A DNA stretch of 64,000 nucleotides from an uncultured Planctomycetales bacterium (GTDB taxonomy: Bacteria > Omnitrophota > Gorgyraeia > Gygaellales > Profunditerraquicolaceae): NCBI GenBank assembly GCA_964593005.1, contig CAZQGT010000002.1, forward strand, positions 13,324 to 77,323, written 5' to 3'. Shown here one piece after another: positions 21,058-61,050 of the stretch. Positions within the stretch are counted from its first letter, which is position 1. Each line of letters begins with the position of its first letter. The translations under genes and the position numbers were made by a program. A model generated the notes under the pieces. That model was not told the DNA's origin and did no database searches. It saw nothing but the letters and a program-made list of their open reading frames with translations.

Positions 21058-21777
21058 ATGAGCAAAAAGAGCATTTCAATTATAATACCGGCTTGTAACG
21101 AAGAGCAAGGTATTGAAAGCGCTGTACTGCATAATATCGAAACATTTAAAGCGCTGGACTTTGACTTTGAGGTAATTATTGTTAATGATAAAAGCGAAGA
21201 CAGAACCGGTGAAATCGCGGAATCATTAGCCAGCCGATATCCCAATATTAAGGTTTTTCATCATGATAGTAATCAAGGTAGCGGCGCTGCTTTTAAGACA
21301 GGTGTTGCTTGGGCTAGGAAAGATTATGTAGTATTTGTTCCTATTGATAATCCGCTGGACATAGAAGATTTACAGGCTTACCTTTTTCGGCTCGATGTCT
21401 GCGATATTGTGGTTGGTGTTCGTATACAGAGAGTAGGATATAGCAGTTTTGCTCTTTTTGCCTCTTTCGTCTATAACCGGATATTTATACCATTGTTTTT
21501 TAATATTGGCCTTGAAGACGCTAATTGGATAAGTTTTTACCGCCGTGATCTTTTTACCAGCGGTATTATCAGCTTTAACAGTAAAAGTATTTTTTGGCTA
21601 GTTGAAATACTGATTCGGGCCAGAAGGAGGCGCTTAATTATTGTTGAGGTACCCAGCAAGATGAAGAAACGCATGCATGGTAGAGCTACCTGCACCCGCC
21701 CTCAAGTTATGATTCAAACATTTATCGAAATGATTAAGTTTTTCCGGATGATACGAAAGGAAGATAGAAGGCGATGA
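21058..21777 (+). CDS. GT2 glycosyltransferase, DPM1/GtrB-like polyprenyl-phosphate sugar synthase type
   Basis: ISIIIPACNEEQGIE and VIIVNDKSEDRT in the GT-A N-terminus. The C-terminal ...VEVPSKMKKRMHG matches the DPM1-like E.P...R..G.SK region. Confidence 0.6.
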   Translation: MSKKSISIIIPACNEEQGIESAVLHNIETFKALDFDFEVIIVNDKSEDRTGEIAESLASRYPNIKVFHHDSNQGSGAAFKTGVAWARKDYVVFVPIDNPLDIEDLQAYLFRLDVCDIVVGVRIQRVGYSSFALFASFVYNRIFIPLFFNIGLEDANWISFYRRDLFTSGIISFNSKSIFWLVEILIRARRRRLIIVEVPSKMKKRMHGRATCTRPQVMIQTFIEMIKFFRMIRKEDRRR

Positions 21778-23450
21778 GATGTGTATTTGTGGCTATCGGG
21801 TGGGAAAATATTGCTCTTCAAGCGTTATCGGCCATGTTAAAAAAACACGGCCATGAGGTGCACTTAGTCTATGATCAGGCCCTTTTTGATGATAAGAACT
21901 ATCTTTGTATTAAATGGCTGGCTAGGTTGTTTGATCAAAGGAGTTTGATCATTCAACGAATTATGGAACTAGAGCCCGATTTAGTAGGTTTTCATGTGCA
22001 AACCATACAATATCAGCAAATGCATAACTTGGCCGCTGATTTAAAAAAGTATTATAATGTTCCGGTAATTTTTGGAGGTATACATCCTTACTCTGCGCCG
22101 GATCAGGTTTTGCTGTCTGATGATCCGTCGGTGGATATGATCTGCCTTGGGGAAGGGGAATATCCGCTTTTGGAATTATGTAACAGTATAGATAAGGGCA
22201 AAATAGATTACGCCATTAAGAACCTTTGGTTTCGGCTTGAAGATAGCTCGATTATTAAGAATGAACTGCGCCCGCTTATAGATGATATTGACAGCTTGCC
22301 TACTATAGATAAGGAATTATTCGCCTCTCATGTTCCCATAAAATATTCTTATCTTTCTTGTCCGGCCCGGGGTTGCCTGTTTGATTGTAATTATTGTTCG
22401 CTTTCATTTTTGGGTAAAGAAGCCAAGCGGCTTAAGGGGCCAAAGGTAAGGCAGCTGTCGGTTGATACATTGATAAATGAACTTAAGCAACATATATTGA
22501 AATATGGATCGGCTTGGATAGATTTTCGTCAACCGTTAATGTCAACAAACGAGAAATGGACCGTCGAATTTTTTACCCGGTACAAAAAGGAGATTAGGCT
22601 GCCGTTTAGATGCTTTAGTCACCCTCTGCTTATTACTGAACCGTCTGTTCGGGTAATGAAAGAGGCTGGATGTTTTGCCATTCAGATAGGTATTGAGTGC
22701 TGGGATGAAGAAATTCGTCATAAGGTTATAAACCGTTGCGAATTGAATGAAGATATCCGGAAAGCCACGGAGATACTTGAACGCGTTGGACAATATTACG
22801 CTTATGACTACATACTCGGCTTACCGCGGCTTCCCAAGACCTTAGCCGATGGCTCTACTGCTGCGTTATCGCAAGAAGAAACCCTGGAATCTATTGAGAA
22901 GGAGCTTATGGGTTTTGCGCAATTTCTTGCGCCGCTTAAGTACTGTTATCGTATTGCCCCGTTTATGATTCAATATATGCCTAAAACCGAGCTAATTCAG
23001 CATGGTATAAACGCCGGCGATTTGAGTTGTCGGGAGATCCAGCGGCTCCAGGAAGGGCTTCATGATAATTATATGTCCGGTGGTTCTATGGTTATGAATC
23101 CAAAACGTTTGCGTCTTTTAAATGGTTATCGGGCGATGTTTAGATTAATGAGTTTTTTATCACCCCGGGCAAAACAGTTATTGATAAAGTTTAAAGTATA
23201 TAAAATATTCTGGATGGCGCCGTTTCGCTTGTTTATGACTGTTCTGGATATTATGATTGCGGTTCGCGACAAGGATGCAACCACATATGTTAAAAACTAC
23301 TACTGGTGGTTTAGGAAGCGGTTTGATAGTAAGTATCATCTATATATGTTCAAAAGGCCTAAAAAGCATCAAGTGCTTTCAGATGCCCCTTTTCAACTTC
23401 CCCGGGATGGCATTCTTGGGAGAAAAACCGCGCATGGATATGAGAGGTAA
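21774..23450 (+). CDS. B12-binding-domain radical SAM protein (class B)
   Basis: N-terminal MRCVFVAIGWENIALQALSAMLKKHGHEVHLV, cobalamin-domain-like. Radical SAM triad GCLFDCNYCSLSF. Confidence 0.65.
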   Translation: MRCVFVAIGWENIALQALSAMLKKHGHEVHLVYDQALFDDKNYLCIKWLARLFDQRSLIIQRIMELEPDLVGFHVQTIQYQQMHNLAADLKKYYNVPVIFGGIHPYSAPDQVLLSDDPSVDMICLGEGEYPLLELCNSIDKGKIDYAIKNLWFRLEDSSIIKNELRPLIDDIDSLPTIDKELFASHVPIKYSYLSCPARGCLFDCNYCSLSFLGKEAKRLKGPKVRQLSVDTLINELKQHILKYGSAWIDFRQPLMSTNEKWTVEFFTRYKKEIRLPFRCFSHPLLITEPSVRVMKEAGCFAIQIGIECWDEEIRHKVINRCELNEDIRKATEILERVGQYYAYDYILGLPRLPKTLADGSTAALSQEETLESIEKELMGFAQFLAPLKYCYRIAPFMIQYMPKTELIQHGINAGDLSCREIQRLQEGLHDNYMSGGSMVMNPKRLRLLNGYRAMFRLMSFLSPRAKQLLIKFKVYKIFWMAPFRLFMTVLDIMIAVRDKDATTYVKNYYWWFRKRFDSKYHLYMFKRPKKHQVLSDAPFQLPRDGILGRKTAHGYER

Positions 23451-23461
23451 GGGTATAGAAT

Positions 23462-24346
23462 TTGGATTGTTTAAAAAGAGAAGTGAAAGTGAATTTTTCC
23501 AGCCTCGATTCATCAAAATTAAAGTTTATTGAGTGTGTCTGTGATCTCTGCGGGAATAAAGAGAGTCAAGTTATTTATTCTGTCTATTTTCTTGGCCTAA
23601 AGTTCTGTTTTGTCCGCTGTTGCGTTTGTGGATTGGTCTATCAAAGCCCCGTTTTGGATAAAGAGAGCCTGAAAAATATATATGAAACGCTGGAATACTG
23701 GGAACATAAAGGCTCCGCCAATTCCACTATGCTTAATTATTATTCTTACTTTGAAGAGGAAGATATGCGCCGGCGTACTGCGGATATCCGAATCAATTGG
23801 ATGGCGCCATACTTGCCGAAAGGTGCCCGCGTATTGGATTTGGGTTGTTCGGATGGCCTTTTTGTTGATGTCCTTGCGAAATCCGGATATCGAGCCTCTG
23901 GCATAGACGTAAGCAGTGCGATGGTTTCTTATGGACGCAAAATTTATTCGGTTAATATTTTCCGGGCAGATTTTGAAGAGGATTGGCCGTTTACTGAACC
24001 CTTTGATGCTATTAGCTGCTATGCGACCCTGTCAAATATTGTTAATCCCTCGCGGGTTTTTGCCAATGTACATAAACATTTGCGGCCTGGCGGTTACTTT
24101 TTCTTCAATTTTGGTTCTTATGACCGGTTAATATCGAGATTTCTGAGAAGCCGTCTCTATCTTTACCGCCCTACCGTTTGTACTATCTATTCAAAAAAGA
24201 CCGTAACTGATTATTGCCATAATCATAACCTTAAAATCTTGAAGATATTTAATGATCTGCAGGTTGTTCCCCTTGCGCGTCTTTTAGGTTTTTTCGTATT
24301 CCGGGTTGTCTTAGTTTATTTAAGCGTCTTGGGCTTGAGAAAATGA
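23462..24346 (+). CDS. Class I SAM-dependent methyltransferase with N-terminal Cys-rich zinc-ribbon
   Basis: CVCDLCGN...CCVCG N-terminus. Motif I RVLDLGCSDGLFVDVLAKSGYRASGIDVS. LRPGGYFFF. Confidence 0.6.
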   Translation: MDCLKREVKVNFSSLDSSKLKFIECVCDLCGNKESQVIYSVYFLGLKFCFVRCCVCGLVYQSPVLDKESLKNIYETLEYWEHKGSANSTMLNYYSYFEEEDMRRRTADIRINWMAPYLPKGARVLDLGCSDGLFVDVLAKSGYRASGIDVSSAMVSYGRKIYSVNIFRADFEEDWPFTEPFDAISCYATLSNIVNPSRVFANVHKHLRPGGYFFFNFGSYDRLISRFLRSRLYLYRPTVCTIYSKKTVTDYCHNHNLKILKIFNDLQVVPLARLLGFFVFRVVLVYLSVLGLRK

Positions 24347-24527
24347 AGTTACGAATGACGCTATTAACGGGATATGCGGCGTATGCTATCCGCGGGGATT
24401 GAATCGCGCCGATATCGACAGGTAAAGTTATTTTGGTTTGATAATATGGGCGGGTATAGCCGGAACAGTCATTCGGTTGCTCTTTTGATTAAAAAAGAGA
24501 AAGATTCTTATTAGGCAGGTAGATTCC

Positions 24528-24555
24528 TTGAAAATTTTGAACTTAGTCTAAAAAT
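24528..24555 (+). promoter_or_regulatory. Candidate sigma70-like promoter in the 235-bp gap
   Basis: TTGAAA at 24528-33. An A/T-rich -10-like TAAAAAT at 24549-55. GGAGA ribosome-binding site before the ATG at 24582. The spacing is non-canonical, so this is weak. Confidence 0.15.
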
Positions 24556-24581
24556 AGCTTAACGGAGAAAATTAAGAAGAA

Positions 24582-26039
24582 ATGAAAATTATACTTATAA
24601 ATCCTCCACGCTTTAAGGATACTGAATGCATAGCGCCTTCATATATGTTTGATTATGGGTTTAATTATCCTCCTCTTGGTCTTTTATATTTGGCCTCTAA
24701 CCTAAAAGGAAATCATGAATGTAAGATTATCGATGCCCTTGCGTTAAAATATTCTCCATATGATTGTTTGAATGAAATAAAAGAATATAAGCCTTTGATC
24801 GTTGGTATGACTGTATTTACGGATTCACTTTATTCATGCCAATTCCTCTCTAGATTAATCAAAGATTATGATCGCAACATTAAGATTATTTGGGGCGGCC
24901 CTCATGTCAACATATACCCCCGAGAAAGTATTGAGCTGCCTGCTATAGATTACGTTTTAACAGGTTTTTCTGAAAACAGCTTTTCCTATCTTGTTAATGC
25001 TCTGGATAACGAACATTCTGATATGCCTAGGGTGTTTGAAAATATTCCAGGGTTGTGGTGGGCTAATAATAAGAACATATTTATCTCTAAATCTAATATT
25101 GATAAAGATTGGAATATAAATGCGTTAAAAAGGCCTAATCGCAAATTACTTGATTTAGATAAGTACTTTACTGCTGCAAATAATAAGAAAATTACAACAA
25201 TCGTTTCATCAAGGGGGTGTCCTTTCGTTTGTACTTTTTGCGACGTTTTCGAGAAACGTTTTCTCGAAAGAGATGCTTCTGATATTATTGATGAACTCAA
25301 AGATATTATTGATCTTGGTATTAGCGAGGTTAATTTCTTTGATGATTGCTTTAATTTGAAAAGAGAAAGGGTGATGCAATTATGTCAGCTGATTATCGAT
25401 AATAAACTGAAATTTGAATGGAGTTTTAGAGGCAGAATAGAGCCTTGCGATGAAGAACTAACCAGATTGCTATATAATTCTGGTTGCCGGCGGGTTCAAC
25501 TCGGCGTTGAAGGAAGCGACCAGGAAACCATAAATAGAATCAATAAGAAAATAAATATTGAAAAGTTGCCTAAGATATTAAAAACTTACAGACAAAGCGG
25601 TATTAAGACAATGGGGTATTTTATTATCGGTTTTCCTTTTCAGAGATATGAAGATTGCGTTGTTTCATGTAAAAAAATTATTAATATGGGGTTTGATTAT
25701 ATCAATATGTTCATCTTGATTCCTTACCCTAATACTTCTATTTACAAAGAGCTGCTTACTCAAGGTATTATCAAAAGAGATCAGTGGCATGAATATGCTG
25801 TTAATCCGCGGCCTTATTTTAAGTTAGAACGATGGCATCCATATATAGAGAGGGAGGTGCTTGAGGTTTTAATGGATAAATATTATGGAAAGTTTTATTT
25901 ATCGCCAAGGCGTATATTTTCAGAGTTTAAAGGTATTCGATCATTGAATAGCTTAATACATAAATCGAAGATGGCCATGGGTATTATCAAAGGCTGCCTT
26001 CATAACAAAACCAGAAATTCAACTTCTGTTGGTTCCTAA
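24582..26039 (+). CDS. B12-binding-domain radical SAM protein (class B)
   Basis: MKIILINPPRF... is the typical class B N-terminus. Radical SAM triad SSRGCPFVCTFCDV. About 33-35% GC. Confidence 0.7.
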   Translation: MKIILINPPRFKDTECIAPSYMFDYGFNYPPLGLLYLASNLKGNHECKIIDALALKYSPYDCLNEIKEYKPLIVGMTVFTDSLYSCQFLSRLIKDYDRNIKIIWGGPHVNIYPRESIELPAIDYVLTGFSENSFSYLVNALDNEHSDMPRVFENIPGLWWANNKNIFISKSNIDKDWNINALKRPNRKLLDLDKYFTAANNKKITTIVSSRGCPFVCTFCDVFEKRFLERDASDIIDELKDIIDLGISEVNFFDDCFNLKRERVMQLCQLIIDNKLKFEWSFRGRIEPCDEELTRLLYNSGCRRVQLGVEGSDQETINRINKKINIEKLPKILKTYRQSGIKTMGYFIIGFPFQRYEDCVVSCKKIINMGFDYINMFILIPYPNTSIYKELLTQGIIKRDQWHEYAVNPRPYFKLERWHPYIEREVLEVLMDKYYGKFYLSPRRIFSEFKGIRSLNSLIHKSKMAMGIIKGCLHNKTRNSTSVGS

Positions 26040-26041
26040 AC

Positions 26042-27610
26042 ATGGTAAACCAGATTATATTTGTTTCTCCGCCAAATCTGCAACTGGGGCATTTCCACTC
26101 TTTTCTTCCTAGAGCTGTGCCATTTGGGGTAGGACTGTTGGCAGCCCGGATGCGCGCGCTAGGAGAACAGGTTCAGCTTTGGGATTTAGAGTTGCATAAT
26201 TATAGCGACGATGAGATTATGCGAGTTGTGCCTGATGGTGGCGCCGGAGTCATTTTTGGTATTAGCTGTATGACTCCAAATGCGGCCCAAGGTTATGCTT
26301 TCGCGCGGCGTATTCGGCAGATAGCGCCAGCTGTTCGGATAGTATTCGGCGGGATTCACCCCAGTGCGGTACCGGAAGAACCATTGTTGGAAGGTTGTGC
26401 TGATGTGGTAGTGCGCGGGGAAGGAGAAGAGGTTATTCCCGAACTTTTAATGCGATGGCGGAATTATAAGGAGGTGGCAGGACAACCGGGCGTTTCCTGT
26501 CGCGACGCGAGTGGGCAGATTATCCATGGACCATCAGCCCCCCCAATCCGGGATCTTGACGCATATCCGCCGTTTCCCTATGACCTTATCGATTTATCCA
26601 AATATCATCTTGGCCTGATTCAGACGTCCAGGGGGTGTCCTTACAATTGTATCTTCTGTAGTCAGCGGGTGATTACAGGCCGGCATTACCGTTACCATAA
26701 GACAGAGCGCGTCATCAGCGAGCTTGAGTTTCTCGTCAATCACTGCCATCAGACCTCGATTATGTTTGTCGACGATTTTTTTACAGCTGATCACCAACGT
26801 GTTACTGAATTGTGCGGTGAGATTCGACGAAGACGCCTGCATGAAAAGGTATGTTTTGGCGCCCAGACTCGCGCTGACAAATTAGATCGTAAAATTCTCC
26901 GAGAAATGCGCTCTTCCGGCTTTGAGAATCTTTCATTTGGTTTTGAAACAGCATCTGAAGCTATCATGACTCTTATTGATAAGAAAGAAACTATTGCCGA
27001 GATTGTTAGAGGTGTTCAGCTTGCACGCCAAGAGGATTTTAACGTTGAAGGGGTATTCATTTTTGGTTTTCCAGGGGAAACCATCGAGGATAGATTACGC
27101 TGTTTCCGCCTAGCGAGAGAGGTTGGGCTCGGACGAGTTCGGTTCAACAACGTTATCCCCTACCCGGGGTGCAGGCTTTTTAATATGGCAAAAAAAGAGG
27201 GGAGGCTTACTGTTCGTAAAAACTGGAGTAACTTTAATTCGGCAGGTGCTGTCAGCTCTCGCCTTGGGAGCAACTATGTTCTTCCTTATGTTCCTGAAGG
27301 TACGAAGGATGGGGCTCTTCAGGGCGATGTTTTATTGGCAAACATACTCTTTTATTTTGATCTGCGGAAGCTCGCTAAGATGGTGACTCCTAAACGAGAA
27401 CCTAGCGGTATAGGTTTTGAATTAACTTTTCGACAATTACTTAAGCCAGTTAAAATAGCTTGTTTTGTCTTCGCTATTGCTACGATGCTTTTGCGCACGT
27501 TGTGGTTTTTGTTGACTCAGAAAGAATGTCGGCGTTTTCTATGGTTGATATTAATTAGGCGTTTACCTGAGCTTGAGCTACCGGTCCGTGAGGCTTTAAA
27601 GGAGATTTAA
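26042..27610 (+). CDS. B12-binding-domain radical SAM protein (class B), with higher GC than its neighbours
   Basis: VNQIIFVSPPNLQ N-terminus. Radical SAM triad TSRGCPYNCIFCSQ. Visibly more GC-rich (about 50%) than the flanking genes. Confidence 0.7.
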   Translation: MVNQIIFVSPPNLQLGHFHSFLPRAVPFGVGLLAARMRALGEQVQLWDLELHNYSDDEIMRVVPDGGAGVIFGISCMTPNAAQGYAFARRIRQIAPAVRIVFGGIHPSAVPEEPLLEGCADVVVRGEGEEVIPELLMRWRNYKEVAGQPGVSCRDASGQIIHGPSAPPIRDLDAYPPFPYDLIDLSKYHLGLIQTSRGCPYNCIFCSQRVITGRHYRYHKTERVISELEFLVNHCHQTSIMFVDDFFTADHQRVTELCGEIRRRRLHEKVCFGAQTRADKLDRKILREMRSSGFENLSFGFETASEAIMTLIDKKETIAEIVRGVQLARQEDFNVEGVFIFGFPGETIEDRLRCFRLAREVGLGRVRFNNVIPYPGCRLFNMAKKEGRLTVRKNWSNFNSAGAVSSRLGSNYVLPYVPEGTKDGALQGDVLLANILFYFDLRKLAKMVTPKREPSGIGFELTFRQLLKPVKIACFVFAIATMLLRTLWFLLTQKECRRFLWLILIRRLPELELPVREALKEI

Positions 27611-29872: not shown

Positions 29873-29902
29873 GAGAATACGCGGAAGGCTTAGAAAGAGA
29901 CT

Positions 29903-35707: not shown

Positions 35708-35708
35708 A

Positions 35709-36830: not shown

Positions 36831-36865
36831 CTTGTTTATGCCGGGCTAAATCGGTATAATAAAAA

Positions 36866-38002: not shown

Positions 38003-38005
38003 TTT

Positions 38006-38443: not shown

Positions 38444-38447
38444 CCTG

Positions 38448-39404: not shown

Positions 39405-39414
39405 TTTTATCCTT

Positions 39415-40545: not shown

Positions 40546-40546
40546 T

Positions 40547-42124: not shown

Positions 42125-42153
42125 AATTAACTCAAAAAAATAGCACTAACCCA

Positions 42154-42181
42154 TTGATAAAACTACATTTTGGTATATAAT
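42154..42181 (+). promoter_or_regulatory. Near-consensus sigma70-type promoter (TTGATA-N16-TATAAT)
   Basis: TTGATA at 42154-59 and TATAAT at 42176-81. The ATG at 42190 is only about 9 nt downstream of the -10 element. Confidence 0.35.
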
Positions 42182-42189
42182 AATAAACC

Positions 42190-44013: not shown

Positions 44014-44018
44014 TAATC

Positions 44019-45308: not shown

Positions 45309-45320
45309 ATAGGAGAATCT

Positions 45321-47280: not shown

Positions 47281-47289
47281 GGATAAATA

Positions 47290-48024: not shown

Positions 48025-48026
48025 TT

Positions 48027-51094: not shown

Positions 51095-51103
51095 GGGGTT
51101 TAT

Positions 51104-52090: not shown

Positions 52091-52092
52091 AA

Positions 52093-53355: not shown

Positions 53356-53384
53356 TTGCAGAGGAAAATAAGGGAAGATAGCGA

Positions 53385-55463
53385 ATGATAAGTTTAATAG
53401 CAGAGGTTCTGATTGTAAGCATCAGCTCCTGGGTGCTTACAAAAAAATGTTTTAATATAAGTTTATTTTCTGATGCAATCTTAGTTTGCTTTACTTTATT
53501 TTTCGGCCAGGTTGTTTTAGTAGAGACACTTTTAGGTATCGCTGGGCAGCTTTATTTCTTGAATGTTTTTGTCGCGCATTTATTGATTCTTTTGGTAATT
53601 TTGTTAATTTATCGGCATAAGAAAATGCCTGAATTTGCAAAACCTGATATAGATCCGTTTATTAATAGCAATTTGTTAATTTTAGCAGTTTCAATTTTCC
53701 TATCTTTCTTTTTGATAAAGGCGTATTCAAACCTGATTAATCCTGTTCAGGATATCGATAGTTTATTATATCATCTCGCTTTTCCTGCTGCCTGGATTAA
53801 AAGCGGTTCCTTGAATACTCCATTTTTTATATTTGGGTCGAAACCTATTTTAATTCCGAGCTTATTAGCAAACAGCGCTCCTTCTTATTATCCTATTAAT
53901 GGAGAATTATTTTTCACCTGGTTTATGTTGCCATTAAGAAATGTTTTTTTAGCAGACTTAGGAGAAGCCCCATTTTATTTTATAGGTATAACAGCCGTGT
54001 ATTCAATATTAACTAAATACAATGTGAATAGTAGAATAGCCCTATTGAGCGGATTCCTTTGGGTGCTCATCCCGAATATTTTTAAGCAGTTAAAATACGC
54101 TTCCCAACTTGATGTTATTTGCGCGGTATTGTTTCTTTTAGTAGTTTTTATGCTTTTATTATTAAAATCTAGGTTTACTCTTAAAAATGCTATTCTTTTT
54201 GGTGTTTCAATAGGGCTTTTTGTGGGAGTTAAATTTAATAATCTTATTTGGTTAGCAGCTTTATTGCCTTTTGCTCTTTATGTATTATATACGCGGGCAA
54301 AATTAAATAAGTACGCATTAAGCAGGGTTTTAATGCCTTCGGGCTTAATAATTTTAATGATTATTCTGTTCGGCGGTTATATGTATATAAAAAATTATTT
54401 TTTTACAGGTAATCCTATGTTTCCGGTAGAATTAAAAATATCCGATAAAACGATTTTTAAAGGCATACTTGATAGCAGCGCATTTAAGACGCAGATGTAT
54501 TCGAATGATAGCCGTGATTTATTCAGGCTTTTTAAAGAAGGCCTTGGTTTGCAATTCTTTTTTCTGATTTTTCCCGGCACATTTGCCTTTCTGGGTTTTT
54601 ATAAATACCTAAAAACAAAAGTATTTCCTTTGAAAGAGCATATGCTGCTTTTTGCCACTCCATTAATAATGCTTATTTTGTTTAAAATTTTCATCGGTGT
54701 TTATGTCGCGCGGTATCTTTTTGTTTATTTGAGTTTAGGGTTAATAACCGCCGTTATTTTAGCGGCCAAGTTGTCAAAAAATGGAGACAAATATATTGGC
54801 GTTGTTTCGTTCATTTCAATTCTGGCCGCATCTTTTGAATTAGCAAAAGGAAGCGAGCTAGTTGTTTCGGTTTTACTTTCTTTGGCAATTTTTATATTGT
54901 GTGTGTTTTATAAAAAACAAGCAGCTGCTTTTTATAAAAGTAAAAATTTTGGCAGGGTTATGTTTGCGGCGTTGTTGCTTGGGTCTTTGTTATTGGTCTA
55001 TCTCAATAATAAATATAATAATGAAGAATACGGCCGTTATCCTCTCAGTTTCAGCAAGAAGGAGGCTTGGCAGGCTGATTTAGGCAGAGCCTGGAAAGCT
55101 CTTAACGGGCTTACAGGGGAGGGTGCAAGGGTTGCTTATACAGGGCGTCAGGAGTGCCTTCCTCTATATGGCTCTGGATTTAAAAATTATATAAAGTATG
55201 TTTCTGTTAATGCAAAAGACATCACTCCTTATAATCATCCGGATGGTTTATATAGAAAAATAAAAAATTATTCGGCTTGGGAAAGAAACCTGAAAAAAGA
55301 GCAAATAGAATATTTGTTTATTGCGCTTCCTTTTCCTGCTAACAGGGAATCGGAGCCGAATAATTTTCCAATTGAAGATGAGTGGGCTGTCCTGCACGGA
55401 GAAATTTTTAAGCCGGTATTTAGTAATTCATTGGCACATATATATAAAGTAGCAATTAAATAA
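53385..55463 (+). CDS. Large polytopic membrane protein with C-terminal soluble domain (GT-C-like candidate)
   Basis: About 14 hydrophobic helices over about 520 aa, then a soluble domain of about 170 aa. No catalytic motif recognised. Confidence 0.35.
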   Translation: MISLIAEVLIVSISSWVLTKKCFNISLFSDAILVCFTLFFGQVVLVETLLGIAGQLYFLNVFVAHLLILLVILLIYRHKKMPEFAKPDIDPFINSNLLILAVSIFLSFFLIKAYSNLINPVQDIDSLLYHLAFPAAWIKSGSLNTPFFIFGSKPILIPSLLANSAPSYYPINGELFFTWFMLPLRNVFLADLGEAPFYFIGITAVYSILTKYNVNSRIALLSGFLWVLIPNIFKQLKYASQLDVICAVLFLLVVFMLLLLKSRFTLKNAILFGVSIGLFVGVKFNNLIWLAALLPFALYVLYTRAKLNKYALSRVLMPSGLIILMIILFGGYMYIKNYFFTGNPMFPVELKISDKTIFKGILDSSAFKTQMYSNDSRDLFRLFKEGLGLQFFFLIFPGTFAFLGFYKYLKTKVFPLKEHMLLFATPLIMLILFKIFIGVYVARYLFVYLSLGLITAVILAAKLSKNGDKYIGVVSFISILAASFELAKGSELVVSVLLSLAIFILCVFYKKQAAAFYKSKNFGRVMFAALLLGSLLLVYLNNKYNNEEYGRYPLSFSKKEAWQADLGRAWKALNGLTGEGARVAYTGRQECLPLYGSGFKNYIKYVSVNAKDITPYNHPDGLYRKIKNYSAWERNLKKEQIEYLFIALPFPANRESEPNNFPIEDEWAVLHGEIFKPVFSNSLAHIYKVAIK

Positions 55464-55464
55464 T

Positions 55465-56202
55465 ATGAAAGAAATTGACAATACCGGAGAAAGGATACTT
55501 TTAGAGAAAGAAACTCCTTTAATGATCGCGCGCCATTTCTGCGCCTATAAGTTTGCTAAGGATTATGTTATCGGCCGAAGCGTCTTAGATATCGGCTGTG
55601 GCGAGGGTTACGGGTCAGCTTTTTTGGCCGATTCAGCTAAAAAAACCCTAGGCCTTGATTATAATTCGGCTGTTATTGATTATGCTAGAAATAAGTATTC
55701 TAAAGAAAATTTAGAGTTTACCTGCCTTGATGCGGGTAACCTGGATTTATTAGGCAGGAAATTTGATATTATCTGTTCTTTTCAAAACATAGAACATATA
55801 ATAGATACACGTAAGCTTCTTTCCGACATAGATAATTTGCTGAAAGATAATGGGTTATTCATTTGCTCAACATGCAACAGGAATGATGCCTCTCCGAATA
55901 GTATTAAGCCCAGTAATAAATTTCATGTTAGAGAGTACCTTGCCGACGAATTTAAAGAGCTGTTAGAAAGCCAATTCAATATAGCTAAAATTTTTGGTTT
56001 AAGAAGGAGTATTGCTTTAAGGCTCAACAGAAGGTTAAAGAAAATAGGATTATTTAACCTCATGCCTCCTAAGCTGGATCCGGTAAAAAGATTTTTTAAT
56101 AAGGCGGATTGTAAATGTTTTTTCTGGTCAGAAAAAGAGCTGGATAGTTGCCTGGATTTTATTGTTGTTTGCAAAAAGAAGGAAGGGTGTATAGTTAAAT
56201 GA
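55465..56202 (+). CDS. Class I SAM-dependent methyltransferase
   Basis: Motif I VLDIGCGEGYGSAFLA. LGLDYNSAVIDYAR. FDIICSFQNIEHI. Confidence 0.65.
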   Translation: MKEIDNTGERILLEKETPLMIARHFCAYKFAKDYVIGRSVLDIGCGEGYGSAFLADSAKKTLGLDYNSAVIDYARNKYSKENLEFTCLDAGNLDLLGRKFDIICSFQNIEHIIDTRKLLSDIDNLLKDNGLFICSTCNRNDASPNSIKPSNKFHVREYLADEFKELLESQFNIAKIFGLRRSIALRLNRRLKKIGLFNLMPPKLDPVKRFFNKADCKCFFWSEKELDSCLDFIVVCKKKEGCIVK

Positions 56203-57596
56203 AGGTAGCGCTTGTCTATCCTCCGGCGGGAGAAAGAAACCTTAGGGGTTATCCTTTAGGTTTGGGATATTTATCCGCCTCTTTAAAGAGGCGGCATAGG
56301 GTAGATATTTATAATTATAATGGCTGTAAGTTTAAAGAAAGCCTGAGTTTATTTTTTAATTCTATTAAGCAAAGCAAGCCGGATTTAGTAGGCGTATCTT
56401 TTAATTCATTTAACCGCTGGGGAGCATATAAGATTATTGAGAGCGTTAAAAAAATCAGCAAAGATATTATTATTGTTTTAGGAGGGGTTCATCCTTCGAC
56501 TATGTACGGCCAGTTATTTCAATATTTTTCCGATTCTATCGATTTTATTATTCAATCAGCCGGAGAAGAATCTTTTTATAAATTATGTAATGCGTTAGAA
56601 TCAGGCCAGGGTTATAAAGATATAAGCGGTTTAGTCTATAGGGATGAAAAGGGAAATTTAGAAGCTAATGCAGTTACGAATAAATTGGTTAACCTTGATG
56701 ATTTGCCTATACCGGATTATTCTTATGCAACCGAAAGAATAAAAGATACCGGTTTTGCCTATCTTATTACCTCCCGGGGGTGTCCGGTTAATTGTTCTTT
56801 TTGCTCAACTTCTTCCTTCTGGGGACAGAATATCAGGATGAATTCTCCGGAAAGGGTGGGAGAAGAAGTTGATTATGTTAAGAGCCTGGGGGCAAAGAGG
56901 TTTTTCTTTTATGATGATACCTTTAACCTGGGGATTGAAAGAACGATAAAATTAGCCGAAATATTAAAAAAGAAGGATATAGAATACCAGATTTCCTGCC
57001 GGGTTAAGCCGGTTAGCGAAGAAATGATTGTTAAGCTTATTGAGTCCGGCTGTAAGCATATAACCTGGGGGGTTGAGAGTTTATCCGATAAGATATTAAA
57101 AGCAATTGAAAAGAAAATTAGCCGGGAAGACGTAAAGAATGCTTTTGATATTTGTGCGAAATATTCTGATAAAATGTCTACTGGAGCATTTTTTTGTGTC
57201 GGGGTGCCTGGAGAGACCGAAGAAACGATTCAAGAATCCGTAGTGTATTTAAATAAAAACATTAAATCCACTCATGGACCGGGGGCTTCTATGCTCTACA
57301 TTCTTCCCGGGACTAAAATTTACCGAGAGATGTTAAAGAATAAAGAATTCGATGAAAGGCTCTGGGTGAAAAACGGCTCTGTTTATTATTATACTAAAGA
57401 GCATAATACGGCAACTTTGAACAGGTGGCGTAAGGCAATCAATAAAAGCGGCATAAGATTGCCGTTTAATTATAAATACTTTTGGGATTATTCTACGATT
57501 GAAGAAAAAGAAAATATCGGAAAGATTAGAAAAGGATTTCGTAAAAATTTAAAGAAAATAAAAAGATTTATAGATATGTTTCGCAGCAGGTATTAA
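56199..57596 (+). CDS. B12-binding-domain radical SAM protein (class B)
   Basis: MKVALVYPPAGE N-terminus. Radical SAM triad TSRGCPVNCSFCST. Confidence 0.7.
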   Translation: MKVALVYPPAGERNLRGYPLGLGYLSASLKRRHRVDIYNYNGCKFKESLSLFFNSIKQSKPDLVGVSFNSFNRWGAYKIIESVKKISKDIIIVLGGVHPSTMYGQLFQYFSDSIDFIIQSAGEESFYKLCNALESGQGYKDISGLVYRDEKGNLEANAVTNKLVNLDDLPIPDYSYATERIKDTGFAYLITSRGCPVNCSFCSTSSFWGQNIRMNSPERVGEEVDYVKSLGAKRFFFYDDTFNLGIERTIKLAEILKKKDIEYQISCRVKPVSEEMIVKLIESGCKHITWGVESLSDKILKAIEKKISREDVKNAFDICAKYSDKMSTGAFFCVGVPGETEETIQESVVYLNKNIKSTHGPGASMLYILPGTKIYREMLKNKEFDERLWVKNGSVYYYTKEHNTATLNRWRKAINKSGIRLPFNYKYFWDYSTIEEKENIGKIRKGFRKNLKKIKRFIDMFRSRY

Positions 57597-57630
57597 TACC
57601 TGCTCTCTTTTACAAAAACGAAAGGTTTTA

Positions 57631-58674: not shown

Positions 58675-59368
58675 AACAGTAATATTATGCGGCGGCAAAG
58701 GAACCAGGATGGGCAGCGATGAGTTACCTAAGGTTCTATTTCCTATAGGAGGCAAGCCGATACTTTGGCACATAATGAGCATTTACTCGTATTTTGGGTT
58801 CAATGATTTTATATTATGCCTTGGGTATAAAGGCGAGAAAATTAAAGAATATTTTTCGCATACAAATAGATGGAATTTAATTTTTTCCGATACGGGTGAA
58901 AATACTAATACCGGCGGTAGAATTAAGAAGGTTGAGAAATATATTAAAGAAGACTATTTCCTTGCTACCTATGGGGATGGCGTTGCGGATATCGATTTGG
59001 CCCAGCTTGTTAAATTTCACGAAAGGCATAAAAAGAGCGCCACGATTACTGTAGCCAGGCCTATTTCTCAGTTCGGTATCGTGGGAGTTGAGCCTCACAC
59101 TCAGTCTGTTACGCATTTTGAAGAAAAACCAATATTAGACCATTGGATAAATAGCGGTTTTTTTGTTTTTAATAAAAATATTTTTAACTACCTTTCGGAC
59201 AATGATATATTGGAAAGAGATAGTTTTAAGCGTATTTTAAAAGATAAAGAGTTGGATGCTTTTAAACACACGGGTTTTTGGAGATGTATGGATACTTATA
59301 AAGATAACCTTGAATTAAATGAACTTTGGAAGACAAATAAGGCTGCTTGGAAAATATGGAAAAAATAG
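58661..59368 (+). CDS. rfbF: Glucose-1-phosphate cytidylyltransferase (RfbF family)
   Basis: Start moved to the ATG at 58661. MQKVKTVILCGGKGTRMGSDELPKVLFPIGGKPILWHIM is the canonical RfbF/NTP-transferase N-terminus. Length is about 235 aa. Confidence 0.7.
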   Translation: MQKVKTVILCGGKGTRMGSDELPKVLFPIGGKPILWHIMSIYSYFGFNDFILCLGYKGEKIKEYFSHTNRWNLIFSDTGENTNTGGRIKKVEKYIKEDYFLATYGDGVADIDLAQLVKFHERHKKSATITVARPISQFGIVGVEPHTQSVTHFEEKPILDHWINSGFFVFNKNIFNYLSDNDILERDSFKRILKDKELDAFKHTGFWRCMDTYKDNLELNELWKTNKAAWKIWKK

Positions 59369-60339
59369 CGGATTTTTGGAGAAATAAAGTTATTTTTATA
59401 ACCGGGGCGAACGGTTTCCTGGGGTCACATTTAGTAAAAAGAGCCCTTTTTTTAAAGGCCAGGGTTATTGTTTTGATAAAAAAAGATATTGTTTATTCGT
59501 TATTTAAAATTGACGGGTTAGACAAAAAATCCAAGATTTACCGGGGAGATTTATCAGATAGCTTGTTAGTAAAATCAATATTTAAGAATAACAAGATCGA
59601 TGTTTGTTTTCATCTTGCTGCTCAGGCTTTTGTAGGCGTAGCCAATAATTCCCCCTTAAGCACATTTAAGGCAAACATTGAAGGCACCTGGAATGTGCTT
59701 GAGGCTGCCAGGGTTTTTGGAGTTAAAGCTATGGTTGTTGCTTCAAGTGATATGGCTTACGGAGAACAGAAAAAGCTTCCTTGCAAGGAGGGTGCGTCTT
59801 TAACTGCCCTACATCCTTATGATGCGTCTAAATCTTGCGCGGATATTCTTAGCAGGACCTATGCTCATACCTATAAGCTTCCGATAGCAGTTACCCGGTG
59901 TACTAATATCTATGGGCCGGGTGATTTTAATTTCTCAAGGATTATACCGGATGCTTGTCGCTCGGCAGCAAGAGGCAGAAATTTAATTATAAGGGGTAAT
60001 GGCGCTTCTTTGAGAGATTACACTTTTGTAGAAGATATTGTTGATGCGTATTTTATTCTGGCTGAAAATTTATTGAGAAAGAATATTAATTATGGCGAAG
60101 CCTTTAATTTTGGAACCGGTAAACCTATAAGCGTAATTGAGCTTGTGAAGACAATCTTAAAGATTTCCGGAAAACCCGGGTTGCTTCCTAGAATATTGAG
60201 CAAAGCTAAATCGAAATGGGAGATTGATAAATTATATCTTTCTAGCGCTAAGGCGAGAAAATTTTTAAAATGGTATCCTAAATATTCACTCAAAAAAGGT
60301 TTAGAAATAACTTATAAGTGGTACAAGGGGCACCTTTAA
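59347..60339 (+). CDS. NAD-dependent epimerase/dehydratase (extended SDR), CDP-sugar modifying candidate
   Basis: VIFITGANGFLGSHLV. YDASKSC (YxxxK). Adjacent to rfbF. Confidence 0.6.
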   Translation: MENMEKIADFWRNKVIFITGANGFLGSHLVKRALFLKARVIVLIKKDIVYSLFKIDGLDKKSKIYRGDLSDSLLVKSIFKNNKIDVCFHLAAQAFVGVANNSPLSTFKANIEGTWNVLEAARVFGVKAMVVASSDMAYGEQKKLPCKEGASLTALHPYDASKSCADILSRTYAHTYKLPIAVTRCTNIYGPGDFNFSRIIPDACRSAARGRNLIIRGNGASLRDYTFVEDIVDAYFILAENLLRKNINYGEAFNFGTGKPISVIELVKTILKISGKPGLLPRILSKAKSKWEIDKLYLSSAKARKFLKWYPKYSLKKGLEITYKWYKGHL

Positions 60340-60372
60340 TTTTAATCAGAGCAGGGAATAACGGGAGATGCT

Positions 60373-61050
60373 ATGCCGCTCATATCAGTTGTTGTTCCGG
60401 TTTATAATGAAGCCAAAACGATAAAGCAGATAATCGAAAAAATTCAATCTGTAAATATTGATAAAGAAATTATTATTATTGATAATAGCTCAACTGATGA
60501 TACGCATAAGATATTAAGGGGGTTAGCTTATGATAATCTAAAAATTATTTATCATAGTAGCAATCGCGGAAAAGGGGCGTCTTGCCGGACGGGCATAGAT
60601 AATTCTAACGGAGAGTATATTGTTATTCAAGACGCCGATTTAGAATACGACCCGAATGATTACTTGCGTTTATATGAAGCATTAAAAGACGATAAAGCTG
60701 ATATGGTTTTAGGGGCGCGTTTTTTTAAAGGATATCATGGGTTATTATTACATAGATTAGGAAATAGATTTTTAACTTCTACTTTGAATTTTCTTTTTGG
60801 TTCGAAATTAAATGATTATGCAACTTGCTATAAGATGGCCCGCCGGGAAGCATTTAATCGCCTTGGCTTGCAGGCAACGGGGTTTGATATTGAAGTTGAA
60901 ATCATTTGTAAGGCCTTACGTTCTGGTTTTAGGATTAAAGAAGTCCACGCGTCATATTATCCGCGATCTTATAGGGAAGGTAAAAAGATTAGGGTTAATG
61001 ATGCTTTCCGGTCAGTTTTTGCGATGTTTAAATATAAATTCGGGAGATAA
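60373..61050 (+). CDS. GT2 glycosyltransferase, DPM1/GtrB-like polyprenyl-phosphate sugar synthase type
   Basis: ISVVVPVYNEAKTIKQII. IIIIDNSSTDDT. DADLEYDP. C-terminal FRIKEVHASYYPRSYREGKKI. Confidence 0.65.
   Translation: MPLISVVVPVYNEAKTIKQIIEKIQSVNIDKEIIIIDNSSTDDTHKILRGLAYDNLKIIYHSSNRGKGASCRTGIDNSNGEYIVIQDADLEYDPNDYLRLYEALKDDKADMVLGARFFKGYHGLLLHRLGNRFLTSTLNFLFGSKLNDYATCYKMARREAFNRLGLQATGFDIEVEIICKALRSGFRIKEVHASYYPRSYREGKKIRVNDAFRSVFAMFKYKFGR

What the first reader, a model, noticed from the sequence alone, without database searches (positions are those of the whole stretch)
21058..61050. Three DPM1/GtrB-like GT2s matched by three large GT-C-like membrane proteins: possible extracytoplasmic Und-P-sugar-dependent glycan decoration
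What the sequence shows: three small GT2 proteins (21058-21777, 47290-48024, 60373-61050) share the DPM1/GtrB/CsbB-type core, including the C-terminal E.P...R..G.SK-like region. Three large polytopic proteins (8173-9762, 27611-29872, 53385-55463) have many TM helices plus a soluble domain, and 27611 resembles YfhO.

Established knowledge: GtrB/CsbB/ArnC enzymes make undecaprenyl-phosphate monosaccharides that GT-C enzymes (GtrC-types, YfhO, ArnT) transfer to glycans on the outer face of the membrane. CsbB-YfhO is a known pair.

Inference: the 3:3 stoichiometry suggests three separate side-branch glycosylation steps performed after flipping. A further C-terminally membrane-anchored GT2 (49068) may also belong to this class.
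Basis: partly seen in the sequence, partly recalled or inferred. Interest (0 to 1): 0.6.

Follow-up and report, generated by a model that had tools for sequence, protein, structure and literature searches.

The report
Lipid-linked sugar donors feeding membrane glycosyltransferases
In a giant cell-surface sugar gene cluster from an uncultured Omnitrophota bacterium, three small enzymes probably load single sugars onto a membrane lipid carrier and large membrane enzymes attach them outside the cell; this is a known strategy, carried out here by previously unclassified protein families.

Summary

The 3:3 pairing is only partly right. In 78 Omnitrophota loci, 49 of 68 genes of the 53385 family sit directly beside a small DPM1-like GT2. 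In one locus that partner is a GT2+GtrA+methyltransferase fusion. GT2s like 60373 sit beside a Wzy_C ligase-like gene in 42 of 45 cases, in an LPS-core context. The 21058 type travels with B12 radical-SAM enzymes and the YfhO-like GT-C, and one homologue is a B12-rSAM::YfhO fusion. The 8173 family never adjoins such a GT2 (0 of 25); it sits in the AsnB-GT4-epimerase-PGT block. GT2 49068 is not DPM1-like.

Verdict: these are new members of the known Und-P-sugar synthase/GT-C scheme, with two unclassified GT-C families. The interesting untested possibility is methylation of the lipid-linked sugar.

The parts
19452..21006 (+). GFO/IDH/MocA oxidoreductase (19452-20489) and hexapeptide acyltransferase (20479-21006). 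They probably make the modified amino-sugar nucleotide used by GT2 21058.
   Evidence: Pfam. The same two genes, plus a DegT aminotransferase, precede the orthologous small GT2 in L002.
21058..21777 (+). Small TM-less DPM1-like GT2 (239 aa). Proposed polyprenyl-phosphate sugar synthase of module A.
   Evidence: PF00535; 0 TM. Aligns over its full length with PfDPMS (5-210 to 24-229) and ArnC. 71% identical to the L002 GT2 that lies upstream of B12-rSAM x2 and YfhO. Its stop overlaps the start of 21774.
21774..27610 (+). Tailoring block: B12-binding radical SAM enzymes 21774-23450, 24582-26039 and 26042-27610, plus class-I methyltransferase 23462-24346.
   Evidence: Pfam. 26042-27610 abuts the YfhO-like gene. 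Homologue P0249 is a B12-binding+Radical_SAM+YfhO fusion. The C-terminal hydrophobic/amphipathic helix is followed by a basic linker in the fusion.
27611..29872 (+). YfhO-family GT-C (753 aa). Proposed extracytoplasmic transferase of module A.
   Evidence: PF09586 at 33.9 bits, above the 28.5 cut-off, C-terminal part only. hhalign against YfhO proteins: 100%, E 1.6e-41, 680 columns. Invariant D40 and the GEYPLWNP motif lie in the first outer loop. In L003 a GT2 of 313 aa, a length typical of GtrB, lies directly upstream of a homologue.
29903..31429 (+). MOP/MATE-type flippase (Polysacc_synt/MatE). Candidate flippase for the lipid-linked sugar or for the Und-PP repeat unit.
   Evidence: Pfam, NCBIfam. 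It is the only flippase-like gene found in the window. A MATE flippase serves this role in the Citrobacter three-component system (PMC11127046).
47290..48024 (+). Small TM-less DPM1-like GT2 (244 aa). Proposed polyprenyl-phosphate sugar synthase partnered with GT-C 53385.
   Evidence: Best PDB match PfDPMS, 3.1e-16, full length. Best NCBIfam hits are PgfS, PpgS, AglJ and ArnC. 35 of 45 GT2s of this type adjoin a 53385-family gene.
53385..55463 (+). GT-C-fold glycosyltransferase (692 aa) of a family without a Pfam model that is conserved across Omnitrophota. About 13 TM helices plus a C-terminal alpha/beta domain.
55465..57596 (+). Class-I methyltransferase (55465-56202) and B12 radical SAM (56199-57596), which follow the GT-C.
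   Evidence: Pfam. The trio GT-C, MTase, B12-rSAM recurs in close homologues. A B12-rSAM lies within 2 genes of the GT-C in 19 of 62 cases, against a 4% gene background.
60373..61050 (+). Small TM-less DPM1-like GT2 (225 aa) with a full DAD motif. Second synthase of module B.
   Evidence: Best NCBIfam hit AglJ, 1.1e-36, full length. PfDPMS 1.9e-14, 4-204 to 25-230. 42 of 45 orthologue-like genes adjoin a Wzy_C gene.
61055..62275 (+). Wzy_C (O-antigen ligase-like) membrane protein, 406 aa. Start corrected from 60812.
   Evidence: PF04932, 3.1e-22. ATG at 61055 with a GGGAGA ribosome-binding site, 4 nt after the GT2 stop. Homologues are 405-415 aa and are followed by GT9 heptosyltransferase genes.
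62290..63066 (+). Polysaccharide deacetylase with an N-terminal TM or signal segment. An occasional companion of the Wzy_C gene.
   Evidence: PF01522. Best NCBIfam hits are PgaB and IcaB. Present after or near Wzy_C in L004, L009, L014, L020, L040 and L080.
8173..9762 (+). GT-C-fold membrane protein (529 aa as an ORF; a 94%-identical homologue is 495 aa) with no linked DPM1-like synthase.

Best explanation
The window is a one-strand LPS/surface-glycan supercluster of about 63 kb from a Candidatus Omnitrophota genome. It contains two modules of the 'lipid-linked monosaccharide donor plus GT-C' type, and a third GT-C that stands alone.

Module A (19452-31429):
1. An oxidoreductase and an acyltransferase make a modified amino-sugar nucleotide.
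2. The peripheral-membrane DPM1-like GT2 21058 transfers the sugar to undecaprenyl phosphate on the cytoplasmic face.
3. Three B12 radical-SAM enzymes and one SAM methyltransferase tailor it. The stage at which they act is inferred.
4. The lipid-linked sugar is flipped, possibly by the MOP protein 29903.
5. The YfhO-family GT-C 27611 transfers it to an acceptor on the outer face.

Module B (47290-62275):
1. Two DPM1-like GT2s (47290 and 60373) make Und-P-sugars.
2. The ArnT/PMT-like GT-C 53385 uses at least one of them.
3. The adjacent Wzy_C protein (61055-62275) is most likely the O-antigen ligase of the neighbouring LPS-core genes. The acceptor may therefore be LPS (lipid A, core or O-chain).

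The third GT-C, 8173, belongs to the repeat-unit assembly block. It probably uses a different lipid-linked donor, or one of these donors supplied in trans.

Shown: the folds, the family relationships, the conserved motifs and the gene linkage. Inferred: the donor lipid, the sugars, the acceptors, the flippase and the stage of methylation.
For: Synthases:
- A profile of the small GT2s hits PfDPMS best (E 1.3e-33, covering the whole catalytic domain, the acceptor loop and IFH2). ArnC also matches over its full length. GtrB sll0501 matches over profile positions 3-175 only.
- The best NCBIfam neighbours that align over the full length are AglJ, PpgS, PgfS, ArnC and Dol-P-hexose transferase.
- The equivalents of the metal-binding Asp (PfDPMS D91), R117, E182 and R202 are present in all three proteins (residue roles from PMC5526996).
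- Lack of TM helices is not an obstacle. PfDPMS lacking residues 230-352 still goes to the membrane and is active (PMC5526996).

GT-C enzymes:
- YfhO hhalign E 1.6e-41.
- All three families conserve an acidic residue just after TM1.

Linkage:
- 49 of 68 genes of the 53385 family adjoin a small full-length DPM1-like GT2 on the same strand, against a 10.7% gene background. The GT2 can lie upstream or downstream.
- In other loci the adjacent partner is a 311-322 aa GT2 with two C-terminal TM helices. In others it is a nucleotidyltransferase+GT2 fusion, and in L070 a GT2+GtrA_DPMS_TM+methyltransferase fusion 19 nt upstream of the GT-C.
- L002 keeps the order oxidoreductase, acyltransferase, aminotransferase, GT2 (71% identical to 21058), B12-rSAM, B12-rSAM, YfhO.
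- L001 has a B12-rSAM::YfhO fusion with a small GT2 3 kb upstream.
- In L003 a GT2 of 313 aa directly precedes the YfhO homologue.

LPS context: Wzy_C is followed by two GT9 heptosyltransferase genes and a HAD phosphatase in canonical loci.
Against: - No enzyme activity, lipid intermediate or glycan structure is known.
- All NCBIfam scores are far below the equivalog cut-offs.
- 21058 and 47290 have Pro where PfDPMS has D89, and K178 is not conserved.
- The IFH1 residues that bind the acceptor phosphate (R131, S135) have no clean equivalents. There is only an invariant Arg one position away.
- The window has no GtrA-family ORF.
- In the window itself the proposed partners are 5-6 kb apart, not adjacent.
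- The linkage counts come from MAGs of one phylum and are not independent events.
- The tight pairing of 60373 with Wzy_C has no precedent as a donor-user pair, so which transferase uses its product is open.
Confidence: 0.68

Rival explanations
1. There are three independent synthase/GT-C pairs (one small GT2 for each of 8173, 27611 and 53385), and each adds one side-branch sugar to the same glycan after flipping.
For: The counts are 3 and 3, and all six proteins belong to the right classes. The 8173 loci examined span only +-8 kb, and in the window the nearest small GT2 lies 11 kb from 8173. Supply of a donor in trans is therefore not excluded.
Against: No 8173-family locus (0 of 25) has a DPM1-like GT2 adjacent or within 8 kb, whereas 72% of 53385-family genes have one adjacent. 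GT2s of the 47290 and 60373 types usually sit together beside a single 53385-family GT-C. The 60373 type is bound to Wzy_C in 42 of 45 cases. The 8173 family instead co-occurs with AsnB, GT4, PGT and PglF, and one relative is fused to MurJ.
Confidence: 0.1
2. The small GT2s are ordinary cytoplasmic Leloir transferases that extend the Und-PP-linked repeat unit. The GT-C proteins are polymerase-, ligase- or oligosaccharyltransferase-like enzymes that use Und-PP-oligosaccharides. No Und-P-monosaccharide is involved.
Confidence: 0.12
3. An archaeal-style AglJ route. A small GT2 starts an oligosaccharide on polyprenyl monophosphate, further transferases extend it, and the GT-C or the Wzy_C protein transfers it en bloc to a protein or to lipid A-core.
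Against: The AglJ score of 126.7 bits is far below the 325-bit cut-off. The OST WWDxG motif is absent. ArnT and PMT are the best structural matches. The Wzy_C gene sits beside GT9 core genes, as an ordinary O-antigen ligase would.
Confidence: 0.07

Closest known systems
Three-component periplasmic glycosylation systems: GtrA/GtrB/Gtr* of Shigella and Salmonella, CsbB-GtcA-YfhO of Bacillus and Listeria, GacI/GacL of streptococci, and the Citrobacter PPPRS/MATE/GT136 system (PMC11127046, PMC7389260)
   Same: A GT2 synthase of the DPM1/GtrB clade is encoded beside a polytopic GT-C. One GT-C (27611) is a YfhO-family member. A MOP/MATE flippase gene follows it, as in Citrobacter. In sister locus L070 the synthase is fused to a GtrA domain.
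   Different: - The window's synthases have no TM helices and the window has no GtrA gene.
- Two synthases usually accompany one GT-C.
- Two of the GT-C families have no Pfam or NCBIfam model.
- B12 radical-SAM enzymes and methyltransferases are interleaved with, and once fused to, the components.
- The host is a diderm candidate phylum.
ArnC/ArnT, with the related Bordetella LgmA-C and Francisella Flm lipid A modification systems
   Same: ArnT is the best structural match of 53385, and ArnC aligns with the small GT2s over its full length. The module sits beside a WaaL-like ligase gene and heptosyltransferase genes. [quoted passage not shown] Their ArnC-like, ArnT-like and deacetylase roles are stated here from memory.
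   Different: There is no sequence-level membership: 0 Pfam hits for 53385, and ArnC scores of 28-48 bits against a 529-bit cut-off. The neighbouring deacetylase 62290 resembles periplasmic PgaB and IcaB, not ArnD. The acceptor is unknown.
Dolichyl-phosphate mannose synthase: type I human DPM1 and type III PfDPMS (PMC5526996), and mycobacterial PpgS
   Same: PfDPMS is the best PDB match. The proteins share the GT-A core, a DxD-type metal site, equivalents of R117 and R202, the acceptor loop and a C-terminal amphipathic helix. Like DPM1, PpgS and the active PfDPMS truncation, they consist of the catalytic domain alone.
   Different: Identity is about 25-30%. D89 is Pro in two of them. K178, R131 and S135 are not conserved, so the sugar is probably not mannose. 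The carrier should be undecaprenyl phosphate rather than dolichyl phosphate. No DPM2- or DPM3-like partner was identified.
Protein O-mannosyltransferases and the PMT_2 family (GT39/GT83 clan)
   Same: Pmt4 and Pmt2 are top structural matches for both 8173 and 53385. PMT_2 is the only Pfam family that recurs among their homologues. 8173 aligns over its full length with a PMT_2-annotated protein.
   Different: There is no MIR domain and no Pfam hit for the window proteins themselves. The genomic context is LPS/polysaccharide assembly rather than protein glycosylation.

Membership tests
DPM1/GtrB/ArnC-type polyprenyl-phosphate glycosyltransferases (GT2) | GT-A GT2 catalytic domain | tested here: met
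   PF00535 at E 2.5e-24, 4.9e-17 and 8.3e-37 for 21058, 47290 and 60373.
DPM1/GtrB/ArnC-type polyprenyl-phosphate glycosyltransferases (GT2) | Similarity that extends past the N-terminal nucleotide-binding half, through the acceptor loop (E-x-P...R...G-x-S-K) and the interface helix IFH2 | tested here: met
   The profile aligns to PfDPMS 24-246 (E 1.3e-33) and to ArnC 8-226. Each single protein aligns to about residue 230 of 5mlz. GT2s 49068 and 38319 do not.
DPM1/GtrB/ArnC-type polyprenyl-phosphate glycosyltransferases (GT2) | Metal-binding DxD (PfDPMS D89-A-D91) with Q93 | tested here: inconclusive
   The D91 equivalent is present in all three. 60373 has DAD followed by LEY. 21058 has PID and 47290 has PAD, so D89 is lost, and Q93 is not conserved (PMC5526996). 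D89 contacts the sugar, not the metal.
DPM1/GtrB/ArnC-type polyprenyl-phosphate glycosyltransferases (GT2) | Residues that bind the acceptor phosphate (PfDPMS R117, R131, S135) | tested here: inconclusive
   The R117 equivalent is present in all three (GVR, ASR, GAR). R131 and S135 are not matched. An invariant Arg lies one column from S135.
DPM1/GtrB/ArnC-type polyprenyl-phosphate glycosyltransferases (GT2) | C-terminal TM helices (GtrB, ArnC, type III DPMS) | tested here: not met
   0 TM helices. This feature is not universal: type I DPM1 lacks them, and PfDPMS lacking 230-352 is active (PMC5526996). Sister loci carry versions with 2 TM helices and GtrA-fused versions.
DPM1/GtrB/ArnC-type polyprenyl-phosphate glycosyltransferases (GT2) | Orthology to a named enzyme (NCBIfam equivalog cut-off) | tested here: not met
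   Best scores: AglJ 126.7 against 325, PgfS 58.5 against 500, ArnC up to 48 against 529.
DPM1/GtrB/ArnC-type polyprenyl-phosphate glycosyltransferases (GT2) | Formation of a polyprenyl-phosphate monosaccharide | not testable with these tools
   Needs a membrane assay with nucleotide sugars and Und-P.
GT-C glycosyltransferases (GT-C_A, ArnT/PMT-like) | Polytopic GT-C fold | tested here: met
GT-C glycosyltransferases (GT-C_A, ArnT/PMT-like) | Conserved acidic residue in the first extracytoplasmic loop after TM1 | tested here: met
   8173: D56 invariant. 53385: D or E at position 30 in 92% of homologues. 27611: D40 invariant. Positions are relative to the helices.
GT-C glycosyltransferases (GT-C_A, ArnT/PMT-like) | Sequence membership in PMT_2, ArnT or another curated GT-C family | tested here: not met
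   8173 and 53385 have no Pfam or NCBIfam hit. Only 5 of 38 and 3 of 40 homologues hit PMT_2 weakly.
Oligosaccharyltransferases (STT3/PglB/AglB) | WWDxG motif | tested here: not met
   None of the three GT-C proteins has WW[DE] or W[WFY]DxG.
YfhO family (PF09586) | Pfam model above the gathering score | tested here: met
   33.9 bits against 28.5, but only residues 650-726. 9 of 11 close homologues carry PF09586.
YfhO family (PF09586) | Full-length homology, including the PLWNP motif of the first outer loop | tested here: met
   hhalign 100%, E 1.6e-41, 680 columns. The P-L-W-N-P columns are invariant in both alignments.
YfhO family (PF09586) | Partner GtrB/CsbB-like GT2 encoded nearby | tested here: met
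   L003: a 313-aa GT2 directly upstream. L002: a 241-aa GT2 three genes upstream. L001: a 230-aa GT2 3 kb upstream. Window: 21058, 5.8 kb upstream.
Gtr-type three-component system | Dedicated GtrA-family (PF04138) flippase | tested here: not met
   The window has no such ORF. The MOP/MATE gene 29903 is the only candidate. PF04138 is fused to the synthase in L070.
Wzy_C / O-antigen ligase family (gene 61055-62275) | PF04932 domain in a polytopic protein | tested here: met
   3.1e-22, 79.4 bits against 31.7. Ligase and polymerase cannot be told apart here.

The most novel reading that the evidence does not exclude
Cobalamin-dependent radical-SAM enzymes and SAM methyltransferases may tailor the sugar while it is attached to undecaprenyl phosphate, after the DPM1-like synthase and before flipping, in physical association with the synthase or the GT-C.

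Observations that point this way:
- A B12-rSAM::YfhO fusion (P0249).
- A GT2+GtrA+methyltransferase fusion (L070).
- The stop of GT2 21058 overlaps the start of B12-rSAM 21774.
- The rSAM C-terminus carries an amphipathic helix.

If true, this would be a 'four-component' route that delivers C-methylated sugars to surface glycans of Omnitrophota. It would also be the first radical-SAM chemistry on a polyprenyl-linked monosaccharide.
Probability: 0.22. Interest if true: 0.75.

Novelty: new member of a known kind. Interest (0 to 1): 0.45.

Why it matters
Periplasmic glycosylation from lipid-linked monosaccharides creates much of the antigenic diversity of bacterial surfaces, but it is known almost only from cultured Proteobacteria, Firmicutes and Actinobacteria.

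This work does three things:
- It assigns a fold and a likely role to two 'hypothetical protein' families that are conserved across the uncultured phylum Omnitrophota. One of them (53385) lies in a four-gene core module: GT-C, two synthases and a ligase-like protein.
- It shows that TM-less DPM1-like synthases are the usual partner there.
- It flags a recurrent association with B12 radical-SAM enzymes, once as a fusion, which could mean a new stage at which sugars are C-methylated.

These families are candidates for new CAZy GT-C families and for glyco-engineering parts.

Tried and rejected
- **PDB sequence and profile searches** with 27611, the 53385 family and the 8173 family found nothing meaningful. 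Fold comparison was needed.
- **Foldseek afdb50** was unavailable.
- **Alignment A2** was too divergent for a locus scan. A narrower alignment, A6, was used instead.
- **ArnD-like reading of deacetylase 62290.** Rejected. Its best families are PgaB and IcaB and it has an N-terminal TM or signal segment, so it probably acts in the periplasm.
- **Search for a GtrA-like small membrane ORF in the window.** None found. The two extra 145-aa ORFs (17550-17987 and 38006-38443) have no long hydrophobic stretch when read directly. They occupy the positions of a glyoxalase-like gene in L002 and a sugar-isomerase-like gene in L007.
- **C-terminal hydrophobic segments of the B12-rSAMs as true TM helices.** Doubtful. 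In the fusion P0249 the equivalent segment carries charges and is followed by a basic linker before YfhO TM1. An interfacial helix fits the topology better.
- **Hydrophobic-moment scan of the small GT2s.** It did not discriminate interface helices from ordinary surface helices.
- **49068 as a fourth synthase.** Rejected.
- **OST identity of the GT-Cs.** Rejected, because the WWDxG motif is absent.
- **hhalign of the 53385 family against the 8173 family.** It gave only 90% probability over a partial region, so they are treated as separate families.

Full report
**What the window is.** All 54 large ORFs lie on the + strand with positive GC skew and 35-45% G+C. Pfam and NCBIfam annotation gives a very large surface-glycan cluster. 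It contains:
- a small phosphoglycosyltransferase (41561) and a PglF-like dehydratase (42190);
- GT4 and GT2 Leloir transferases;
- a MOP/MATE flippase (29903) and two Wzy_C proteins (44019 and 61055);
- NeuB and a CMP-transferase, an AsnB-type amidotransferase, and many NDP-sugar dehydratases and aminotransferases;
- about nine class-I methyltransferases;
- five B12-binding radical-SAM enzymes, plus three other radical-SAM proteins.

Every named close homologue comes from Candidatus Omnitrophota MAGs.

**Checking the observation: the small GT2s.** The three proteins sit exactly where stated and have no predicted TM helix. Each aligns over essentially its whole length with the catalytic domain of P. 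furiosus Dol-P-Man synthase and with ArnC. A seven-sequence profile gives PfDPMS E 1.3e-33 (residues 24-246), ArnC 1.5e-25 over its full length, and GtrB sll0501 2.9e-27 over profile positions 3-175. Generic GT2s match only the first ~100-140 positions.

The residue roles come from the PfDPMS structure paper (PMC5526996). Measured against them:
- the metal-binding Asp (D91), R117, E182 and the acceptor-loop Arg (R202) are present in all three proteins;
- 60373 has the full DAD motif, whereas 21058 and 47290 have Pro in place of D89;
- K178, R131 and S135 are not matched, which argues for sugars other than mannose and leaves acceptor binding only partly testable.

The same paper shows that a PfDPMS truncation without its TM domain is still membrane-targeted and active. 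A 225-244 aa TM-less enzyme is therefore a credible polyprenyl-phosphate transferase.

The three proteins align with each other end to end at 24-28% identity. They align with 49068 and 38319 only at the N-terminus. GT2 49068 has two C-terminal TM helices, but its best matches are chondroitin and heparosan synthases and MftF-like families. It is not in this clade.

PMT_2 is the only Pfam family that recurs weakly among their homologues. 8173 also aligns over its full length with a PMT_2-annotated protein.

27611 passes the YfhO gathering score only at its C-terminus. A profile of its nine closest relatives nevertheless matches a profile of YfhO proteins at 100% probability, E 1.6e-41, over 680 columns, including the invariant PLWNP motif.

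All three families conserve an acidic residue just after TM1: D56 in 8173, D or E at position 30 in 53385, and D40 in 27611. This is the GT-C catalytic hallmark as described in PMC11127046. None has the WWDxG motif of oligosaccharyltransferases.

One correction applies to 8173. Its 'soluble domain' is a disordered loop (residues 268-351) partly encoded by an 87-bp tandem repeat.

**Who goes with whom: the 53385 family.** I scanned 78 genome loci, all from Omnitrophota MAGs (some labelled otherwise), with a profile of the small GT2s and with all window proteins.
- Of 68 family members with both neighbours present, 49 have a small full-length DPM1-like GT2 as the immediate same-strand neighbour, and 54 have one within two genes. 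Such GT2s make up 10.7% of the genes in these loci.
- The GT2 lies upstream in the close relatives and downstream in the distant ones, so the adjacency has survived rearrangement.
- The commonest order is carbamoyltransferase, SxtJ-like, DUF3108, GT-C, GT2 (about 232 aa, 47290-like), GT2 (about 225 aa, 60373-like), Wzy_C (about 410 aa), GT9, GT9.
- 35 of 45 GT2s like 47290 adjoin the GT-C, and 42 of 45 GT2s like 60373 adjoin a Wzy_C gene.
- In some loci the neighbour of the GT-C is a 311-322 aa GT2 with two C-terminal TM helices. In others it is a nucleotidyltransferase+GT2 fusion. In L070 it is a GT2+GtrA_DPMS_TM+methyltransferase fusion 19 nt upstream.

The GtrA fusion is the strongest single argument that this GT-C family is served by a lipid-linked monosaccharide.

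**Who goes with whom: the YfhO-like family.** This subfamily is rare: 36 representatives at E <= 1e-30 among 1.84 billion proteins. Three other loci could be read.
- L002 keeps the order oxidoreductase, acyltransferase, aminotransferase, GT2 (71% identical to 21058), B12-rSAM, B12-rSAM, YfhO.
- L001 has a single 1257-aa B12-binding+Radical_SAM+YfhO protein, with a small GT2 3 kb upstream.
- L003 has a 313-aa GT2 immediately upstream.

In the window the B12-rSAM 26042-27610 ends one base before the YfhO-like gene starts. The stop of GT2 21058 overlaps the start of B12-rSAM 21774.

**Who goes with whom: the 8173 family.** Thirty-three metagenome loci plus L006 and L007 were examined. None of the 25 genes with both neighbours present has a small DPM1-like GT2 adjacent or anywhere within +-8 kb. 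The conserved context is methyltransferase, AsnB, GT-C, GT4, epimerase, PGT, PglF, which is the block that builds the Und-PP-linked repeat unit. A relative (P0230) is fused to a MurJ/MATE flippase domain. One caveat: in the window the nearest small GT2 lies 11 kb from 8173, so supply of a donor in trans is not excluded.

**Most likely mechanism.** There are two modules of the known 'synthase, flip, GT-C' scheme.
- Module A is 19452-31429. Its parts are sugar-nucleotide tailoring genes, GT2 21058, three B12-rSAMs with one methyltransferase, the YfhO-type GT-C 27611, and the MOP/MATE protein 29903 as a possible flippase. A MATE flippase has this role in the Citrobacter system (PMC11127046).
- Module B is 47290-62275. 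Its parts are two synthases (47290 and 60373), the ArnT/PMT-like GT-C 53385 with a methyltransferase and a B12-rSAM behind it, and a Wzy_C protein. In sister genomes the Wzy_C gene sits next to GT9 heptosyltransferase genes and is most simply the O-antigen ligase.

The acceptor for module B could therefore be lipid A or core, as in Arn/Lgm-type systems (PMC4993483 for the Lgm genes; their enzymology is from memory). It could equally be the O-chain. 8173 is a GT-C whose donor is unresolved.

Shown: folds, family relationships, motifs and gene linkage. Inferred: carrier lipid, sugars, acceptors, flippase, and which transferase uses the product of 60373.

**Rivals.**
2. The small GT2s could be Leloir enzymes on Und-PP-glycans, with the GT-Cs as polymerases or ligases. 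The missing TM helices, the missing D89 and the sub-threshold scores favour this. The full-length DPMS/ArnC similarity and the GtrA-fused and 2-TM partners in sister loci count against it.
3. An AglJ/AglB-like route using monophosphate-linked oligosaccharides is hinted at by the best hit of 60373 (AglJ, but 126.7 bits against a 325-bit cut-off). It lacks the OST motif.

**Novelty and interest.** The scheme itself is well known. What is new here:
- two unclassified GT-C families, one of them part of a phylum-wide four-gene module;
- TM-less DPM1-like synthases as the usual bacterial partner;
- two synthases per GT-C;
- repeated association with B12 radical-SAM enzymes.

A B12-rSAM lies within two genes of the 53385-family GT-C in 19 of 62 cases, against a 4% gene background. 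It is fused once to YfhO, and in L006 to a GT4. Because a radical-SAM domain must work in the cytoplasm, fusion to a GT-C suggests that it acts on the Und-P-sugar before flipping. The nearest NCBIfam relatives of these rSAMs are lipid-modifying enzymes (HpnJ, HpnR, 'ladderane' lipid rSAM, BchE), but all are far below threshold.

This reading is untested. I give it about 0.2 probability. I file the finding as a new member of a known kind, with moderate interest.

Noticed in passing
window 11982-13688, 21774-23450, 24582-26039, 26042-27610, 56199-57596 (B12-rSAM); 30-1175, 14523-15380, 50027-51094 (other rSAM): One glycan cluster holds five B12-binding radical-SAM genes, three other radical-SAM or SPASM genes, and about nine class-I methyltransferases. 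This is an unusual density. It suggests heavily C- and O-methylated sugars.
   Followed up: partly
P0249 (locus L001:8000-11773); L006:4040-6820: B12-binding+Radical_SAM domains are fused to a YfhO GT-C (1257 aa). In another Omnitrophota locus they are fused to a GT4 Leloir transferase (926 aa).
   Followed up: partly
L070:3135-4937, L057:6462-8264; L021:8421-10004, L023:8421-10004, L069:4425-5948: Some synthase variants lie beside, or in L057 two genes from, the 53385-family GT-C. L070 has a 600-aa GT2+GtrA_DPMS_TM+Methyltransf_11 fusion. L057 has a similar 600-aa protein, but PF04138 was not detected in it. L021, L023 and L069 have 507-527 aa nucleotidyltransferase+GT2 fusions.
   Followed up: partly
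window 9019-9238: An 87-bp tandem repeat (2.5 copies, 99% identical) lies inside the 8173 gene. It encodes a 29-aa repeat in a disordered loop. The 94%-identical homologue P0121 is 34 aa shorter, so copy number or start site may vary.
   Followed up: no
window 60812-61054: The mechanical ORF 60812-62275 overlaps GT2 60373-61050 by 239 nt. The real Wzy_C start is the ATG at 61055, preceded by GGGAGA. This gives 406 aa, like its homologues.
   Followed up: yes
window about 63150-64000: The window ends inside a carbamoyltransferase (NodU/CmcH-like) gene. In other Omnitrophota its roughly 605-aa orthologue is followed by an SxtJ-like 133-aa membrane protein, a DUF3108 protein and the 53385-family GT-C.
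   Followed up: partly
P0230 (872 aa): An 8173-like GT-C region (residues 9-334) is fused to a C-terminal MurJ/MatE flippase domain (402-835). This hints that the 8173 family acts right after a lipid-linked glycan is flipped.
   Followed up: partly
window 13705-16152: NeuB-like synthase (13705), rSAM/SPASM (14523) and CMP-transferase (15238) ORFs overlap by 61 and 143 nt as called, so some starts are probably wrong. Together with aminotransferase 16156, they point to a nonulosonic-acid branch.
   Followed up: no
window 31407-33179, 34191-34949, 7240-8172, 9762-10469: Four ORFs have no significant Pfam hit. 31407 (590 aa) lies upstream of a methyltransferase, as the 586-aa LIC12162-family gene does in L007. 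9762 has a weak transglutaminase-core hit and one TM helix.
   Followed up: no
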